IMG/VR virus record: IMGVR_UViG_3300014804_000067 | From: a virus | Taxonomy: Duplodnaviria > Heunggongvirae > Uroviricota > Caudoviricetes | Length of the DNA stretch: 5,430 nucleotides | Reading direction: 5' to 3' (one strand) | Shown: positions 1 through 4,908 of the stretch, one piece after another | Position numbering within the stretch: the stretch's first letter is position 1 | How the letters are laid out: the number at the start of each line of letters is the position of its first letter | Made by a program: the position numbers and the translations under genes | Notes under the pieces: generated by a model | What the model was told of the DNA's origin: nothing | Seen by the model: the letters and a program-made list of their open reading frames with translations, nothing else | Database searches by the model: none

Positions 1-10
1 GGTGAGTGAT

Positions 11-139
11 ATGGATTTCGACACAATCATGGAAAAGGCTTACGAAGAATACTTCGAAGGTCTTGCCGAAGGCGAAGAAGCTCTCAGCTTCAACGAATTT
101 AAACAGGCGCTTTCCAGTTCGGCAAAATCTAACGGCTGA
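11..139 (+). CDS. Hypothetical small acidic protein (42 aa from ATG 11; may instead continue from upstream of the window)
   Basis: Open frame from position 2 to TGA 137..139; ATG at 11 preceded by GGTGA (1..5). Translation MDFDTIMEKAYEEYFEGLAEGEEALSFNEFKQALSSSAKSNG. Below the size cutoff of the ORF track. Not recognised. Confidence 0.3.
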   Translation: MDFDTIMEKAYEEYFEGLAEGEEALSFNEFKQALSSSAKSNG

Positions 140-168
140 TAAGCGAAACAGCACCGCGAGGAATCAGT

Positions 169-387
169 ATGCAGAAACGAGAACCCGTCATCATCGCGCC
201 AGACTATACCGATGATGAACTTTATGAGTGGATGCACCAGAAAATTAATGCAGCGTAGGATCTGAAATGGGCCAATGAAGCCAGGGCTAAGCAGGCTGAA
301 AATCTGTCCGCTCTGGAGCAGGATATCACTAATCTGGAAAAAGCAGCGGCATTAAGCATTGCCAGAATGATTACATACCCGCGTTAA
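169..387 (+). pseudogene. Small prophage ORF (72 codons) interrupted by an in-frame amber codon at 256..258; the 5' part alone would give a 29-aa product
   Basis: SD GAGGA at 158..162, 6 nt before ATG 169. Translation MQKREPVIIAPDYTDDELYEWMHQKINAA, then TAG, then the same frame stays open for 43 more protein-like codons (DLKWANEARAKQAENLSALEQDITNLEKAAALSIARMITYPR) to TAA 385..387. No alternative ORF covers 259..409. Confidence 0.4.
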
Positions 388-409
388 TAGCTAACCAACG
401 AGGCTAATA

Positions 410-811
410 ATGGAATTTAAAGATTTACCAGTACCATTCCAGGAAATGGCATCTAATGTGGTTCGCTCTCAACTGGCGACTCTTGACCTGAGTACTGTAG
501 AAAAGGAAACCATCGATACTATATCCGGTAACGTGCGTCGTGCCTTTATAGGTCTGTATGAAGAGAAGCGCCTATTCGGCGGACAGAATTCGACTGAAAA
601 CAAGAATCAAGCAAATGATGAGAAGCTGAAACACATTATCGCCTTACTTTTGGAAGACGCAAAACGTCTACAGCAACTGGAACCAAATGCAGGCACAGAG
701 GCCCGCATTTGGATTGCCATGAAATCACTCAAATGTGAAAGCAGTGATTATTTCAAAACAACAATTAAAACTACTCAACTTTCGGGAGAGCTACTGAAGA
801 AATTGCCATAA
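410..811 (+). CDS. Hypothetical protein, 133 aa
   Basis: ORF-track ORF; GAGG at 400..403, 6 nt before ATG 410; follows the previous ORF after a 22-nt spacer. Not recognised. Its last ~25 codons run into the AT-rich island and overlap the 3' end of the minus-strand ORF. Confidence 0.6.
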   Translation: MEFKDLPVPFQEMASNVVRSQLATLDLSTVEKETIDTISGNVRRAFIGLYEEKRLFGGQNSTENKNQANDEKLKHIIALLLEDAKRLQQLEPNAGTEARIWIAMKSLKCESSDYFKTTIKTTQLSGELLKKLP

Positions 812-965
812 GAGCACGGTCTTTCTCTTGTTCTGCAAGATGAGCATTAATACCTGGTATGGTTTTTTCAAATTTATCTATCTGTTGAATAACAACTTCG
901 CGGTATACGTTTGTATTTGTACCACCAAGCGCAGCCGTTAATGCAGAAAGCATATTTAGTATCAT
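771..965 (-). CDS. Hypothetical small protein, 64 aa (MILNMLSALTAALGGTNTNVYREVVIQQIDKFEKTIPGINAHLAEQEKDRALMAISSVALPKVE), stop-start coupled to the 27-codon ORF; alternatively the 3' part of a single frameshifted gene
   Basis: Minus-strand sequence reads cac-TGA-t-ATG: the upstream ORF stop (969..967) is followed after one nucleotide by ATG (965..963). No SD of its own. Same frame as ORF-track ORF 771..1055. Lies in the ~30% G+C island. Confidence 0.4.
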   Translation of the reverse strand: MILNMLSALTAALGGTNTNVYREVVIQQIDKFEKTIPGINAHLAEQEKDRALMAISSVALPKVE

Positions 966-966
966 A

Positions 967-1050
967 TCAGTGCGATATGAAAAGAATCCTGATAGCTTCA
1001 TCTTGTTTTTCAATAATAGATTGCAGGGCCTCAATTTGCTTTTTATCCAT
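967..1050 (-). CDS. Short upstream ORF, 27 aa (MDKKQIEALQSIIEKQDEAIRILFISH), with the strongest ribosome-binding site in the window
   Basis: On the minus strand AGGAGG (plus 1056..1061), spacer GTGAA, ATG (1050..1048); stops at TGA (969..967). The ORF track instead lists 771..1055 starting at a GTG that directly abuts the SD, which is an implausible spacing. Confidence 0.35.
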   Translation of the reverse strand: MDKKQIEALQSIIEKQDEAIRILFISH

Positions 1051-1055
1051 TTCAC

Positions 1056-1624
1056 CCTCCTGAGGGTTGGTAATTAAGGAGTTCTCCACGGGTCAGGTGG
1101 AGTGCGTGCGCCGGACACGGGTGAGCATCCGGCACTGACAGTTTACTGAAAAGGATATATCCCTGAAAAGTCAGGGCATAACACGAAAGCGCCCGGCGAA
1201 GTTAGTCTCTCTGTATAGGTCGTCATTAAATTTTCGTCGACCGCGCGCTTCCGGTTGTGGCACTCCGCGAAATGGCGCGGCGGTAAGTATGGCGGGGTTA
1301 TTCCTTCCCCGTTGAGGACACCGGGTTGTCAGGTTGACCATACGCTTAAGTGACAACCCCGCTGCAACGCCCTCTGTTATCAATTTTCTGGTGACGTTTG
1401 GCGGTATCAGTTTTACTCCGTGACTGCTCTGCCACCCTTTTTAAAGTGAATTTTGTGATGCGGTGAATGCGGCTATGCGCACGCGGAACAGTTAAAACCG
1501 TAAAGTGGTCTTTTACGGGGCGTAACGGGCATCCTTCTGTATTCCGGCGTTAATTGTTAACTGGTTAACGTCACCTGGAGGCACCAGGCACTGCATAACA
1601 AAATTCATTGTTGAGGACGCGATA
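1056..1624. other. ORF-free, GC-rich, hairpin-dense intergenic region; candidate structured RNA or regulatory region
   Basis: No credible ORF in six frames (only an Arg-rich TTG-start minus ORF). G+C about 60-67% in 60-nt samples against about 30% in the adjacent island. Perfect inverted repeats at 1110..1133 (6-bp stem), 1161..1176 (6-bp stem, 4-nt loop), 1323..1359 (9-bp stem, 19-nt loop), 1498..1518 (7-bp stem) and 1574..1588 (5-bp stem). Confidence 0.4.
1549..1568. promoter_or_regulatory. Three GTTAA(C) repeats at 7-8-nt spacing upstream of the 1625 gene; possible operator or protein-binding site
   Basis: cGTTAAttGTTAACtgGTTAACg: GTTAA at 1549..1553, 1556..1560 and 1564..1568; the last two are palindromic GTTAAC hexamers. 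No convincing sigma70 -35/-10 pair could be aligned to it. Confidence 0.25.
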
Positions 1625-1813
1625 ATGGAAACGTTATTACCAAACGTTAATACGTCTGAAGGTTGTTTTGAAATTGGTGTCACTATCAGTAACCCTGTAT
1701 TTACTGAAGATGCCATTAACAAGAGAAAACACGAACGGGAGTTATTAAATAAAATATGCATTCTTTCAATGCTGGCCCGTTTACGTCCGATACAAAAAGG
1801 ATGTGCACAATGA
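1625..1813 (+). CDS. Hypothetical small protein, 62 aa
   Basis: GAGGA at 1613..1617, 7 nt before ATG 1625. Its stop TGA (1811..1813) overlaps the ATG (1810..1812) of the next gene in an ATGA arrangement. Not recognised. Confidence 0.55.
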   Translation: METLLPNVNTSEGCFEIGVTISNPVFTEDAINKRKHERELLNKICILSMLARLRPIQKGCAQ

Positions 1814-2001
1814 ATACAGCATTTGCACTTGTTCTGACAGTTTTTCTTGTTTCCGGAGAGCCAGTTGATATTGCAGTCAGTGTTCACAGGACAATGCAGG
1901 AGTGTGTGACTGCAGCAACCGAACAGAAAATTCCCGGTAACTGTTACCCGGTCGATAAAGTTATTCACCAGGATAATAACGAAATCCCGGCAGGTCTTTA
2001 A
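1810..2001 (+). CDS. Small prophage protein, 63 aa, with a hydrophobic N-terminal segment (MNTAFALVLTVFLVSGEPVDIAVSV...); resembles from memory the small DUF1482-type proteins of E. coli lambdoid prophages
   Basis: AAAGGA at 1795..1800, 9 nt before ATG 1810; ATGA overlap with the upstream gene. The ORF track extends this frame to ATG 1756, which has no SD. The N-terminus looks like a signal peptide or transmembrane helix. Family assignment is recollection only. Confidence 0.6.
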   Translation: MNTAFALVLTVFLVSGEPVDIAVSVHRTMQECVTAATEQKIPGNCYPVDKVIHQDNNEIPAGL

Positions 2002-2093
2002 AACAGTTCCGTAATAAATATCCGGTTTCATTCTTATATGCCAGCAATGGCAGGGATTTGTTCACCCTTAAATCTGTAATGAGGTAAAACAAA

Positions 2094-4584
2094 ATGAGTA
2101 AAGTCTTTATTTGCGCCGCCATTCCGGACGAACAGGCAATAAAGGAAGAAGGTGCAGTCGCTGTAGCCACTGCCATTGAAGCCGGTGATGAACGTCGCGC
2201 CCGCGCAAAATTTCACTGGCAATTCCTGGAACATTATCCGGCTGCTCAGGACTGCGCTTATAAATTTCTTGTCTGCGAGGATAAACCCGGTATACCCCGC
2301 CCTGCCCTAGATTCCTGGGATGCTGAATATATGCAGGAAAACCGCTGGGATGAGGCGTCTGCTTCCTTTGTCCCGGTTGAGACTGAATCAGATCCGATGA
2401 ACGTCACTTTTGACAAGCTGGCCCCTGAAGTACAGAACNNNNNNNNNNGTACAGAACGCTGTCATGGTTAAGTTCGACACATGTGAAAACATCACCGTTG
2501 ATATGGTGATTAGCGCGCAGGAACTGTTGCAGGAAGACATGGCAACATTCGACGGACATATCGTTGAAGCGTTGATGAAAATGCCAGAAGTTAACGCCAT
2601 GTATCCGGAGCTTAAGCTGCATGCCATCGGGTGGGTTAAGCATAAATGTAAGCCTGGTGCCAAATGGCCCGAAATTCAGGCAGAGATGCGCATCTGGAAA
2701 AAACGTCGCGAAGGTGAACGCAAGGAAGCCGGAAAATACACGTCTGTTGTTGATCTCGCCCGCGCCAGAGCCAATCAACAGCACACTGAAAATTCAACAG
2801 GAAAAATCAGCCCGGTCATTGCTGCCATTCATCGCGAATACAAGCAGACATGGAAAACACTGGATGACGAACTGGCCTACGCTCTCTGGCCTGGTGATGT
2901 GGATGCCGGAAACATTGACGGCAGCATCCATCGCTGGGCAAAAAATGAAGTTATCGACAACGACCGCGAAGACTGGAAGCGTATCTCGGCATCAATGCGC
3001 AAACAGCCTGAAGCACTTGGCTATGACCGTCAGACTATTTTTGGCCTTGTCCGTGAACGTCCGATCGACATTCACAAAGATCCCGTGGCGCTGAACAAAT
3101 ACATCACTGAATACCTGACTACAAAGGGCGTGTTTGAAGATGAAGGAACAAATCAGAGCACAACTAATACTCTCCCGTCGCCAGTACCAGAAGCTGATGC
3201 AGTGGAAACGGCAATGCCGGACAACGAAAAAACCGAATGCAAAGTGGAAGTCGAACCATCTGTAGAGCGTGAGGGGCCGTTCTACTTCCTCTTCACCGAC
3301 AAGGATGGCGAAAAATACGGTCGCGCAAACAAACTTTCTGGTCTGGATAAGGCGCTGGCTGCCGGGGCAACTGAAATCACGAAAGAAGAATATTTTGCCC
3401 GCAAAAACGGCACATACACAGGTTCACAACAAAATACTGATGCATCTGACACGACCGCACAACCAGACCTGGTAAAAGTTACCGCTGACGAAGTAAACAA
3501 AATTATGCAGGCAGCCAGTATCAGCCAGCCTGACGCCGATAAGTTGCTTGCTGCCTCTCGCGGAGAATTTGTTGCAGGGATTAGCGACCCGAATGATCCG
3601 AAATGGGTAAAGGGGATTGAAACCCGCGATTCTGTAGACCAGAACCAGCAAGAATCGGAACAGAACGACCAGAAAGCGGAACAAAACAGCCCAAATGCGT
3701 TACAAAACGAGCCAGAAACGAAACAACCTGAACCAGTAGTGCAACAGGAACCGGAAAAGATCTGCACCGCCTGCGGTCAGACCGGCGGCGGCAACTGCCC
3801 TGATTGTGGCGCGGTGATGGGCGACGCAACATACCAGGAAACATTCGATGAAGAGTATCAGGTTGAAGTTCAGGAAGATGATCCGGAGGAAATGGAAGGC
3901 GCTGAACATCCACACAAGGAGAACACTGGCGGCAATCAGCATCACAATAGCGATAATGAAACTGGCGAGACGGCAGATCACCCAATTAAGGTGAACGGTC
4001 ATCACGAAATCACATCCACCAGCAGGACGTGTGACCATCTAATGATCGACCTTGAAACCATGGGAAAAAATCCTGATGCCCCGATCATCTCAATAGGTGC
4101 AATATTTTTCGATCCGCAAACCGGAGATATGGGACCGGAATTTAGTAAGACTATCGATCTGGAAACTGCTGGCGGGGTCATTGATCGGGACACCATTAAA
4201 TGGTGGCTTAAGCAATCACGCGAAGCGCAATCTGCCATTATGACCGATGAAATCCCGTTAGATGATGCACTGTTACAATTGCGGGAATTTATCGACGAAA
4301 ACTCCGGTGAATTTTTTGTTCAGGTTTGGGGAAATGGAGCCAACTTCGACAACACGATTTTGCGCCGTTCATACGAACGGCAGGGGATCCCCTGCCCGTG
4401 GCGTTACTACAACGATCGCGATGTACGCACAATCGTTGAGCTGGGGAAAGCCATAGACTTCGATGCCAGAACGGCTATTCCATTCGAAGGTGAGCGCCAT
4501 AATGCACTTGATGACGCCCGTTACCAGGCAAAATACGTTTCAGTTATCTGGCAAAAACTGATCCCGAGTCAGGCTGATTCTTAA
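2094..4584 (+). CDS. Large prophage exonuclease (~820 aa once the gap is resolved): N-terminal region recalled as exodeoxyribonuclease VIII/RecE-like, acidic Q/E/N/P-rich linker, C-x2-C-x7-C-x2-C zinc ribbon, C-terminal DEDDh 3'-5' exonuclease domain
   Basis: GAGG at 2080..2083, 10 nt before ATG 2094. The 2094 frame (ORF 2094..2471) and the 2410 frame (ORF 2410..4584) both encode VQN either side of the N run, and removing the 10 N plus one copy of the 9-mer joins them as ...DKLAPEVQNAVMVKFDTCENITV.... Cys codons at 3763, 3772, 3796, 3805. Exo motifs: DLETMG (D 4048, E 4054), WGNGANFDNT (D 4348), HNALDD (H 4498, D 4513). The TTG 'start' at 2410 is an artefact. Confidence 0.85.
2439..2448. other. 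Scaffold gap (10 N) flanked by a direct 9-bp duplication GTACAGAAC (2430..2438 and 2449..2457); probable unmerged contig overlap
   Basis: Read directly: gaaGTACAGAACnnnnnnnnnnGTACAGAACgct. It causes an apparent +1 frame change inside the exonuclease gene. Confidence 0.9.
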
Positions 4585-4656: not shown

Positions 4657-4908
4657 ATGAGCGAAGTAATCATGATTGTCTCTCCCGGCAAATGGGTATC
4701 CGAAGAGCAGTTAATTGCGCTGAAAGGAATAAAAAAAGGTACGTTAAAAAAGGCCCGGGAAAAATCGTTTATGGAAGGAAGGGAATATAAGCATGTCGCT
4801 CATGACGGTATGCCATGGGATAACAGTCCATGCTTTTACAACCTGGAAGAAATTGATCGCTGGATTGAGCGCCAGGCATCAGCGAGACCAAGACGTCATC
4901 TTACTTGA
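4657..4908 (+). CDS. xis: Excisionase-like protein (Xis family), 83 aa
   Basis: Sits between the recombination gene and the integrase. Translation contains KWVSEEQL...GREYKHV...YNLEEIDRWIE, a GREY motif followed by a hydrophobic residue as in lambda Xis (DGREYLF). SD is weak (purine-rich AAGAG/AAAG); an alternative start is ATG 4672. Confidence 0.7.
   Translation: MSEVIMIVSPGKWVSEEQLIALKGIKKGTLKKAREKSFMEGREYKHVAHDGMPWDNSPCFYNLEEIDRWIERQASARPRRHLT

What the first reader, a model, noticed from the sequence alone, without database searches (positions are those of the whole stretch)
771..1061. AT-rich minus-strand cassette: a strongly initiated 27-codon ORF stop-start coupled to a 64-codon ORF (or a frameshifted gene)
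The only minus-strand genes in the window sit in an island of about 30% G+C (18/60 G+C in both 841..900 and 961..1020), inside an otherwise ~50% G+C rightward operon. The best SD in the window (AGGAGG, 5-nt spacer, ATG at 1050) opens a frame that ends after 27 codons. One nucleotide past that stop (TGA-t-ATG) a 64-codon frame begins with no SD of its own. This is either a termination-reinitiation pair, which is typical of leader/effector or toxin-antitoxin-like small gene pairs, or a gene carrying a +1/-1 frameshift. Neither protein is recognisable to me. Inversely oriented low-GC inserts in phage early regions are classic moron, anti-defence or abortive-infection loci.
Basis: partly seen in the sequence, partly recalled or inferred. 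Interest (0 to 1): 0.65.

Follow-up and report, generated by a model that had tools for sequence, protein, structure and literature searches.

The report
Frameshift-split prophage gene, not a gene pair
The two small back-to-back reading frames are the two halves of one conserved 92-codon prophage gene of unknown function, broken here by a single extra base, so the finding is an ordinary pseudogene and not a new coupled gene pair.

Summary
The ORF anatomy is as described. On the minus strand, AGGAGG, a 5-nt spacer and ATG 1050 open a 27-codon ORF ending at TGA 969-967. One base later, ATG 965 opens a 64-codon ORF ending at 771. This is not an evolved stop-start pair. E. coli E2348/69 and 042 carry one uninterrupted 92-codon ORF here (WP_000358771.1, phrog_18692, function unknown). 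The window has one extra T in a T-run (T3 to T4; + strand A4 at 980-983). Of 126 complete E. coli genomes with the locus, 121 have the shorter run and 5 have the window's T4 allele, so it is an inherited mutation and not just a read error. The intact gene is real: Salmonella orthologues are 71-73% identical with dN/dS 0.08-0.25, and more distant 90-93-aa relatives exist. It encodes a soluble, acidic, predicted three-helix 10-kDa protein with no significant family or fold match. It always lies near a prophage immunity region, and where the neighbouring genes show the early operon's direction it is antisense to it. Here it sits inside the dicBF operon, next to the DicF precursor. Some related prophages lack it or carry a different small gene in the same slot. 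My reading is a decayed copy of a moron-type accessory gene. Interest is low.

The parts
771..1050 (-). Pseudogene allele of the 92-codon prophage gene (WP_000358771.1 family, phrog_18692). It is 280 nt here against 279 nt in intact alleles.
   Evidence: Alignment with E2348/69, 042 and JE86-ST05. Translation of the intact allele. Full-length PHROG match, E 5.9e-63. The 279-nt span is conserved in the even sample of 60 of 127 genomes.
1056..1061 (-). Shine-Dalgarno AGGAGG, 5 nt before ATG 1050. This is the native ribosome-binding site of the 92-codon gene.
   Evidence: Sequence. Motif count. GGAGG/GGAGA is conserved ahead of the ATG in the Salmonella orthologues and L010; L011 has only GGA.
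967..1050 (-). 5' fragment ORF of 27 codons: native residues 1-23, then four out-of-frame residues (FISH), then TGA.
980..983 (-). Frameshift site. The run is T4 on the coding strand (A4 on + strand) where intact alleles have T3 (CTT TCA becomes CTT TTC A).
   Evidence: Alignment column 118. With a 61-nt probe, 5 genomes match at 100% and 121 match over 60 nt with one base fewer.
771..965 (-). 3' fragment ORF of 64 codons, equal to native residues 29-92. Its ATG is the internal Met29 codon of the intact protein. Native residues 24-28 (SYRTD, including the family-invariant Arg26) are lost from both products.
771..811 (.). 41-nt convergent 3' overlap between the 92-codon gene and the + strand 133-codon gene. 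The overlap length is the same in Salmonella and in a P2-like context.
   Evidence: E. coli annotations; Salmonella; L010.
410..811 (+). Convergent neighbour, a 133-aa hypothetical protein (phrog_1363). Its C-terminal half is homologous to the 71-aa Salmonella neighbour.
1066..1385 (+). Structured DicF-precursor region, homologous to the K-12 Qin ydfC-dicF spacer. It forms the sequence upstream of the minus-strand gene. Homology with K-12 starts at about window position 1066, about 15 nt upstream of the ATG at 1050.
   Evidence: Alignment with K-12. [quoted passage not shown]
1386..1437 (+). DicF sRNA gene. It shows that the cassette sits inside a dicBF-type early-left operon.
   Evidence: Rfam RF00039, 70.1 bits, E 1.8e-14.

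Best explanation
The 'cassette' is one gene, not two. It is a 92-codon accessory gene of E. coli/Salmonella temperate prophages (WP_000358771.1, phrog_18692). It lies on the strand opposite to the early-left (dicBF) operon, between a 133-codon gene and the DicF precursor. In this window's lineage one extra T entered a T3 run at codon 24. The frame started by the strong SD and ATG 1050 now runs into TGA after 27 codons. The rest of the gene survives as a 64-codon frame that happens to begin at the internal Met29 codon, one base after that stop. The TGA-t-ATG junction is therefore an accident of the frameshift and not an evolved coupling signal. The predicted 39-residue first helix is cut in two and the invariant Arg26 is lost, so I infer that the allele is non-functional (a pseudogene in a decaying prophage). 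For the intact gene, my best inference is a small soluble three-helix protein made from the repressed prophage. It would be a moron in the same position and orientation as sieB of lambda/Rac (orientation recalled from memory, not checked here). I expect it to be silenced by convergent early-left transcription on induction and to act on superinfecting phage or on dicBF expression. Shown: the frameshift, the single-ORF state of relatives, purifying selection, and the position and orientation. Inferred: loss of function, expression in the lysogen, and the biological role.
For: 1) E2348/69 and 042 carry a single 279-nt ORF at the same place. The window and JE86-ST05 differ from it by one extra T, at alignment column 118.
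2) A 61-nt probe over the site finds the locus in 126 of 5426 complete E. coli genomes. Five match at 100% (the T4 allele) and 121 match over 60 nt, one base fewer.
3) In an even sample of 60 of the 127 genomes that match the intact gene, 56 span exactly 279 nt at 99.3% identity or more. Three are the frameshift lineage at 280 nt, and one is a 57-nt partial match.
4) The intact protein matches phrog_18692 end to end, 1-92 of 92, E 5.9e-63.
5) Salmonella orthologues of 93 aa are 71-73% identical. dN/dS is 0.08-0.25, and differences fall mostly at third codon positions (9/0/28 between the two Salmonella alleles).
6) A profile search of 1.84 billion representative proteins adds four more distant full-length relatives of 90-93 aa.
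7) The T4 allele carries a linked substitution (K45N) that is shared by the window and JE86-ST05. It occurs on two different upstream backgrounds, so it is inherited.
8) The same prophage has a second inactivating mutation: ydfC has CAG to TAG at 256-258.
9) The AlphaFold model (pLDDT 76) has helices at 3-41, 48-59 and 69-84, and the break falls inside helix 1.
10) The gene lies near the immunity region or integrase in every related locus. Where the neighbouring genes show the early operon's direction (Salmonella lambdoid loci and P2-like L010), it is on the opposite strand. In L016 and L011 a PL-like promoter match reads antisense through it.
Against: No expression data exist for either allele. 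The consensus scan found no sigma-70 promoter for the minus-strand gene within the scanned region (window 600-1650, i.e. up to about 600 nt upstream). Reinitiation at an ATG one base after a stop is mechanistically possible, so the two fragments could both be made and might retain partial activity. The window comes from a draft assembly (N-run at 2439-2448), so an independent read error at a homopolymer cannot be strictly excluded for this particular sequence. The role proposed for the intact protein rests on position alone. Pfam gave no match, and PADLOC, NCBIfam and PDB gave nothing significant.
Confidence: 0.92

Rival explanations
1. It is a genuine translationally coupled two-gene module (leader peptide plus effector, or a toxin-antitoxin-like pair) that works through termination-reinitiation at TGA-t-ATG.
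For: A strong SD sits on the first ORF and none on the second, and the stop and start are 1 nt apart. Three of seven family members give a weak NCBIfam hit to a RelB-like antitoxin, best E 0.013 at 15.7 bits against a cut-off of 50.
Against: 121 of 126 complete genomes, the Salmonella orthologues and the distant relatives all have one continuous 90-93-codon ORF. The second ATG is an internal Met codon of that ORF. No toxin-antitoxin, defence or toxin family is matched above threshold. The protein has no hydrophobic segment typical of small toxins; the best 19-residue Kyte-Doolittle score is 0.9-1.2.
Confidence: 0.03
2. It is a sequencing or assembly error in this window, and the true sequence carries the intact 92-codon gene.
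For: The lesion is a one-base length change in a homopolymer. The window is from a draft scaffold, with a 10-N gap flanked by a 9-nt duplication inside the exonuclease gene. Other database members show frameshifts at the A6 run that look like read errors, for example P0016 from E. coli DEC2C.
Against: The identical T4 run is present in five complete genomes from at least three independent strain sets (JE86-ST02/05, SW070917, UCPROB-001/002). It is also in protein clusters P0010 and P0012 from other sources. The window shares the linked K45N substitution with JE86-ST05. A run of four is short for a systematic homopolymer error.
Confidence: 0.08
3. Programmed ribosomal frameshifting or transcriptional slippage at the T-run restores a full-length protein, making the locus a regulated recoding site.
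For: The shift lies in a short T-run (CTT TTC).
Against: Nearly all relatives encode the protein in one frame, so there is no conserved recoding arrangement. From general knowledge of recoding sites, a run of 4 is far below the lengths at which slippage is efficient. I did not notice a downstream stimulatory structure or a slippery heptamer in the sequence, but I ran no dedicated search for one.
Confidence: 0.02
4. There is no protein-coding gene at all. The AT-rich stretch acts only as an antisense or transcription-interference element, or as spacer, inside the dicBF operon.
For: No promoter was predicted. The family is tiny and taxonomically narrow. tblastn against 50,697 deposited phage genomes gave no match.
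Against: dN/dS is 0.08-0.25, with substitutions concentrated at third positions in exactly this frame. The ORF length of 90-93 codons is kept down to 33-45% identity. Most members have a strong conserved SD. By my own estimate, a 92-codon open frame in 37% G+C DNA is expected by chance with probability of about 0.002.
Confidence: 0.03

Closest known systems
WP_000358771.1 / phrog_18692: 92-aa hypothetical protein of E. coli and Salmonella lambdoid prophages
   Same: It is the same gene at the same position and orientation. The window's two ORFs correspond to residues 1-23 and 29-92 of this protein at 95% or more identity.
   Different: The window's copy has a +1 T insertion that splits it. NCBI's PGAP annotates the same allele in JE86-ST05 as a 76-aa hypothetical protein, WP_225380399.1. 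No function is known for the family.
sieB of lambda, P22 and Rac (superinfection exclusion gene lying antisense within the PL operon; recalled from memory, not tested here)
   Same: It is a small accessory gene close to the immunity region, on the strand opposite to early-left transcription, and therefore a candidate for expression from the repressed prophage (for the position of this family).
   Different: There is no sequence similarity; no PHROG or Pfam link to SieB was found. As I recall, SieB is about twice as long and is a membrane protein. This protein has no hydrophobic segment.
AroQ-class chorismate mutase (E. coli EcCM 1ECM; M. tuberculosis Rv0948c 2QBV)
   Same: Both have three helices of similar lengths (long H1, short H2, medium H3). 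There is weak similarity in a constant register over residues 2-61, including R26, a GGT(K/R) loop and R50-E51. hhalign scores are 20-24 against 10.5 +/- 1.8 for column shuffles and 12.8 for the reversed profile. NCBIfam NF005894 is hit by 3 of 7 members, best E 6.4e-5.
Translationally coupled leader/effector pairs such as mok-hok
   Same: A stop codon and the next start lie within a few bases, and the second ORF lacks its own SD.
   Different: The arrangement is not conserved. It is one broken ORF. The products are not hydrophobic peptides.

Membership tests
phrog_18692 / WP_000358771.1 prophage protein family | Full-length sequence match to the 92-position family profile | tested here: met
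   The intact E2348/69 allele matches 1-92 of 92, E 5.9e-63. The window's DNA differs from it by 1 indel and 2 substitutions in 280 nt.
phrog_18692 / WP_000358771.1 prophage protein family | One uninterrupted ORF of 90-93 codons | tested here: not met
   The window has a T3 to T4 insertion at 980-983 that splits the ORF into 27 + 64 codons. It is therefore a pseudogene allele of the family and not an intact member.
phrog_18692 / WP_000358771.1 prophage protein family | Location next to the immunity / early-left region of a temperate prophage, on the strand opposite to early-left genes | tested here: met
   The window has ydfB, ydfC, the 133-aa gene, dicF, dicB, exonuclease, xis and int all on +, and this gene on -. 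The same holds in E. coli 042 and E2348/69, in Salmonella and in P2-like L010. In L011 and L016 the gene is convergent with the cI-like repressor, and a PL-like promoter match reads antisense through it.
Translationally coupled two-gene module (leader/effector or toxin-antitoxin) | Two separate ORFs conserved as such in relatives | tested here: not met
   121 of 126 E. coli genomes have the shorter run that preserves one ORF. All Salmonella orthologues and all distant relatives examined have one ORF.
Translationally coupled two-gene module (leader/effector or toxin-antitoxin) | Match of either product to a known toxin, antitoxin or defence family | tested here: not met
   Pfam gave none. PADLOC gave nothing significant. 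NCBIfam gave only a sub-threshold RelB-like hit, 15.7 bits against a cut-off of 50.
AroQ chorismate mutase | Sequence match above the family threshold (Pfam CM_2 or NCBIfam) | tested here: not met
   The best hit is NF005894 at 22.7 bits against a cut-off of 73. There is no CM_2 hit. A profile search of PDB sequences finds no chorismate mutase at E up to 10.
AroQ chorismate mutase | Catalytic residues (EcCM Arg11', Arg28, Lys39, Glu52; residue list from memory) | tested here: not met
   Candidates for Arg28 (R26) and for Arg51/Glu52 (R50/E51) are present. The Arg11 equivalent is Q or L in the E. coli and Salmonella members. No basic residue aligns with Lys39/Arg46.
AroQ chorismate mutase | Fold similarity of a confident model to solved chorismate mutases | tested here: not met
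SieB superinfection exclusion proteins | Sequence homology and membrane segments | tested here: not met
   There is no PHROG or Pfam link to SieB. The best 19-residue hydropathy score is 0.9-1.2, below the usual transmembrane threshold.
Programmed recoding site | Two-frame arrangement conserved among relatives, with a slippery motif | tested here: not met
   Relatives are in a single frame. The run is only 4 nt long.

The most novel reading that the evidence does not exclude
The intact 92-aa protein may be a previously unrecognised class of lysogen-expressed prophage factor. It would be a dimeric three-helix protein remotely derived from the AroQ chorismate-mutase fold but catalytically degenerate. 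It would be encoded antisense to the early-left operon, so that its expression and that of DicF/DicB exclude each other through convergent transcription or RNase III cleavage of sense-antisense duplexes. It would act in superinfection exclusion or in keeping the toxic dicBF operon silent. The slot it occupies, between the last early-left ORF and the DicF precursor, would be a dedicated exchange site for such small antisense morons.
Probability: 0.1. Interest if true: 0.55.

Novelty: already known. Interest (0 to 1): 0.15.

Why it matters
As written, the finding would have suggested a new coupled small-gene system in a phage early region. It does not, and the practical value lies in removing a false lead and annotating the locus correctly as a frameshifted pseudogene of WP_000358771.1. 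There is some residual interest. The intact gene is an uncharacterised, clearly selected, narrowly distributed prophage gene. It sits antisense inside the medically relevant dicBF (DicF/DicB) operon of about 2% of E. coli genomes, including EPEC E2348/69 and EAEC 042. The slot also holds alternative small genes in other strains. That makes it a cheap candidate for a phage-exclusion or dicBF-regulation screen, but nothing here shows such a function.

Tried and rejected
- Function by sequence. Pfam gave no match. PADLOC and NCBIfam gave nothing above threshold. PHROGs gave only an unknown-function family.
- Chorismate-mutase lead. I followed it with hhalign against the verified MtCM and EcCM sequences and a 4-sequence chorismate-mutase alignment, using reversed and shuffled controls. 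The signal is above the controls but weak and is not backed by structure. I rejected it as a classification and kept it as a low-probability lead.
- Family expansion. A word-indexed search found 22 clusters, all E. coli or Salmonella. An exhaustive HMMER search of 1.84 billion representatives found 14 hits. tblastn against 50,697 phage genomes found nothing. A scan of species-representative genomes confirmed nothing.
- Promoter. The consensus scan of window 600-1650 found none on the minus strand. By eye, the only candidate is a weak 8/12 match, TTTTCA-18-TAAACT, around 1140-1170.
- The apparent conserved 5' leader of the cassette. The hairpins at about 1085-1135 show compensatory changes between loci, and a CUCCU:AGGAG pairing could mask the SD. 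This region turned out to be the DicF-precursor region shared with K-12, which lacks the gene. Its conservation is therefore explained by dicF processing, and I do not claim it as a regulatory leader.
- Literature. There were no papers mentioning WP_000358771, WP_225380399 or phrog_18692. The dicBF papers describe K-12, which lacks this gene.
- Toxin-antitoxin or type I toxin idea. I rejected it because there is no hydrophobic segment, no conserved partner gene apart from whatever lies convergent to it, and no family hit.
Full report
**Context**

The window is the early-left arm of an E. coli lambdoid (Qin/dicBF-type) prophage. On the + strand it carries:
- ydfB (11..139)
- ydfC (169..387)
- a 133-codon hypothetical gene (410..811, phrog_1363)
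- the DicF sRNA (1386..1437, Rfam 70.1 bits, E 1.8e-14)
- dicB (1625..1813)
- a DUF1482/ydfD gene (1810..2001)
- a large exonuclease gene
- xis (4657..4908)
- the start of int

The reported feature is the only minus-strand coding region.

**Observation**

The anatomy is exactly as described.
- AGGAGG lies at 1061..1056, followed by a 5-nt spacer and ATG 1050.
- A 27-codon ORF follows, ending at TGA 969..967.
- After one base, ATG 965 opens a 64-codon ORF ending at TAG 773..771. It has no SD of its own.
- The island as a whole is 37.1% G+C against 46.3% for the window. That places it in the lowest 1.7% of 280-nt windows.

**What it is**

A megablast of 600..1300 found full-length matches in 125 complete E. 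coli genomes. In E2348/69 and 042, RefSeq annotates one 279-nt minus-strand gene here, WP_000358771.1. Its translation is MDKKQIEALQSIIEKQDEAIRILSYRTDMILNML...SSVALPKVE.

Aligned base by base, the window differs by one extra T in a T-run: GGATTCTTTCAT in intact alleles, GGATTCTTTTCAT here. On the + strand this is A4 at 980..983.

The consequences follow directly:
- The 27-codon ORF is native residues 1-23 plus four out-of-frame residues (FISH).
- The 64-codon ORF is native residues 29-92, and its ATG is the internal Met29 codon.
- The TGA-t-ATG junction is an accident of the shift.
- Residues 24-28 are lost, including Arg26, which is invariant across the family.

**How common each allele is**

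- A 61-nt probe centred on the site hits 126 of 5426 complete genomes. Five match at 100% (JE86-ST05, JE86-ST02, SW070917, UCPROB-001, UCPROB-002). The other 121 match over 60 nt, one base fewer.
- With the intact 279-nt gene as query, 127 genomes match. In an even sample of 60, 56 span exactly 279 nt at 99.3% identity or more. Three are the frameshift lineage at 280 nt, and one is a 57-nt partial match.
- PGAP annotates the frameshift allele in JE86-ST05 as a 76-aa protein starting at an internal ATG.

**Error or mutation**

The window is from a draft scaffold. A 10-N gap with a 9-nt flanking duplication sits inside the exonuclease gene. Several points argue that the T4 allele is nonetheless a real, inherited mutation:
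- It is present in five finished genomes from several projects.
- It is present in protein clusters from other sources (P0010, P0012).
- It is linked to a substitution (K45N) shared by the window and JE86-ST05.
- It sits on two different upstream backgrounds. The window has ydfB and ydfC upstream, while JE86-ST05 has neither. No complete genome matches window 1..2400 above 97.2%.

The same prophage carries a second inactivating change, CAG to TAG at codon 30 of ydfC (256..258). That fits a decaying element.

**Is the intact gene real**

Yes.
- Salmonella prophages encode 93-aa orthologues that are 71-73% identical.
- Nei-Gojobori dN/dS is 0.17-0.25 between E. coli and Salmonella, and 0.08 between two Salmonella alleles. 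Differences by codon position are 9/0/28.
- A profile search of 1.84 billion representative proteins found only 14 hits. Four of them are distant full-length relatives of 90-93 aa at 33-45% identity.
- The intact protein matches phrog_18692 over its whole length.
- tblastn against 50,697 deposited phage genomes found nothing. In the databases searched here, I found the family only in bacterial genome and metagenome contigs with prophage-type neighbours.

**What the protein looks like**

- It is 10.3 kDa with pI 5.7 and has no hydrophobic segment.
- AlphaFold predicts three helices at 3-41, 48-59 and 69-84, with mean pLDDT 76 from a shallow alignment.
- The frameshift falls inside helix 1.
- Pfam gave no match, and PADLOC and NCBIfam gave nothing above threshold.

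One lead was pursued. Three of seven family members hit the NCBIfam chorismate-mutase model NF005894 (best E 6.4e-5, 22.7 bits against a cut-off of 73). hhalign against the verified M. tuberculosis and E. coli AroQ sequences aligns residues 2-61 in a constant register. Scores are 20-24, against 10.5 +/- 1.8 for shuffled columns and 12.8 for the reversed profile. However, probabilities are only 7-27% and no structure search returns a chorismate mutase. A family-profile search of PDB sequences finds none either. Two catalytic positions are not conserved. I do not classify the protein as AroQ.

**Surroundings and likely role**

- K-12 Qin lacks both the 133-codon gene and this gene. There, ydfC is followed by a 340-nt spacer and then dicF.
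- Window 1066..1437 is homologous to that spacer plus dicF. Homology begins at about window position 1066, about 15 nt upstream of the cassette's ATG. The AGGAGG belongs to the insert.
[quoted passage not shown] This explains its conserved hairpins. It also means that early-left transcription crosses the 92-codon gene in antisense.
- The C-terminal half of the 133-codon gene occurs in 168 genomes. In the two I examined of the 41 more divergent copies (RM10809-3 and CU37RT-2), an unrelated 57-codon minus-strand ORF replaces the 92-codon gene. The homology break lies at the neighbour's stop codon, about 811/812. The site therefore behaves as an exchangeable slot for small antisense genes.
- The 3' ends of the 92-codon gene and its convergent neighbour overlap by 41 nt in E. 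coli, in Salmonella and in a P2-like prophage where the neighbour is an unrelated 214-aa protein.
- In L011 and L016 the distant homologues lie just beyond the 3' end of a LexA-type cI gene, and a PL-like promoter match reads antisense through them. One further copy lies next to a P4-type integrase.
- There is no conserved partner gene, so it is a single-gene module.

By position and orientation it resembles sieB of lambda and Rac (from memory). My working model for the intact gene is a moron made from the repressed prophage and shut off by convergent early-left transcription on induction. I put this at about 50%. It rests on inference only: no promoter was predicted for it in the window and no expression data were found.

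**Verdict**

Its headline interpretation (a stop-start coupled pair or toxin-antitoxin-like cassette) is refuted by its own stated criterion, and its alternative (a frameshifted gene) is correct. The locus is a pseudogene allele of a catalogued but uncharacterised prophage gene, which is ordinary.

Noticed in passing
window 169..387 (stop at 256..258): ydfC carries a premature TAG at codon 30, where K-12 and E. coli 042 have CAG. The rest of the 72-codon frame is intact. This is a second inactivating mutation in the same prophage arm.
   Followed up: partly
window 2430..2457: A run of 10 N is flanked by a direct 9-nt duplication (gtacagaac) inside the exonuclease gene. It adds 19 nt relative to the 2472-nt gene of E2348/69. 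It is a scaffold gap or assembly artefact that splits the ORF into 2094..2471 and 2410..4584.
   Followed up: partly
window 1386..1437 and 1449..1602: A canonical DicF sRNA (Rfam 70.1 bits) is followed by a sub-threshold match to STnc100 (34.9 bits against a gathering score of 47, E 5e-5) in the dicF-dicB spacer.
   Followed up: no
window 771..811; L005 6242..6282; L010 489..529: The 41-nt convergent overlap between the 92-codon gene and its neighbour is the same length in E. coli, Salmonella and a P2-like prophage. The neighbour's last 10 or so residues (LSGELLKKLP, LSEALLKKCT, IPEELLIRCS) are similar even where the rest of the neighbour is unrelated. Those residues are encoded antisense to the conserved C-terminus (ISSVALPK.E) of the 92-aa protein.
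   Followed up: partly
L013 1802..1975 (-) and L012 1803..1987 (-): In the two examined representatives (CU37RT-2, RM10809-3) of the 41 E. coli genomes with a more divergent 133-codon gene, the slot holds an unrelated 57-codon minus-strand ORF (MQVDIISPVTDPYACAHQ...). It has its own GGAGG SD. In RM10809-3 that ORF is itself frameshifted.
   Followed up: partly
window 1085..1135 (compare L005, L009, L010, L012): Two GC-rich hairpins lie just upstream of the cassette: GUGCCGGA...UCCGGCGCAC, and CUCCAC...GUGGAG. The second shows compensatory stem changes between loci (CCACACG/CGUGUUGG, UCCCAAC/GUUGGGA). On the minus strand, a CUCCU segment could pair with the AGGAG SD (fold z-score -2.4). The region is shared with K-12, which lacks the gene, so it most likely serves DicF precursor processing on the + strand.
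   Followed up: partly
L016 1000..1028 (-) and 845..865 (+); L011 718..746 (-): In lambdoid contexts of distant homologues, a PL-like promoter match lies between cI and the homologue and reads antisense through it (strong in L016: TTGACA-17-GATTAT preceded by TG, 10/12; weaker in L011: 9/12). In L016 a hairpin terminator follows the homologue's stop codon.
   Followed up: no
protein clusters P0009, P0013, P0014, P0016-P0018: Several other database members of the family are truncated by frameshifts, mostly at the A6 run GAAAAAACC (window 858..866 on the + strand). Some probably reflect homopolymer read errors in older draft genomes, and others may be independent inactivations.
   Followed up: no
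window 600..1300 against E. coli genomes: The DicF-precursor part of the query recurs in about 4300 of 5426 complete E. coli genomes, with up to 8-10 places per genome. The 92-codon gene is present in only 127.
   Followed up: no
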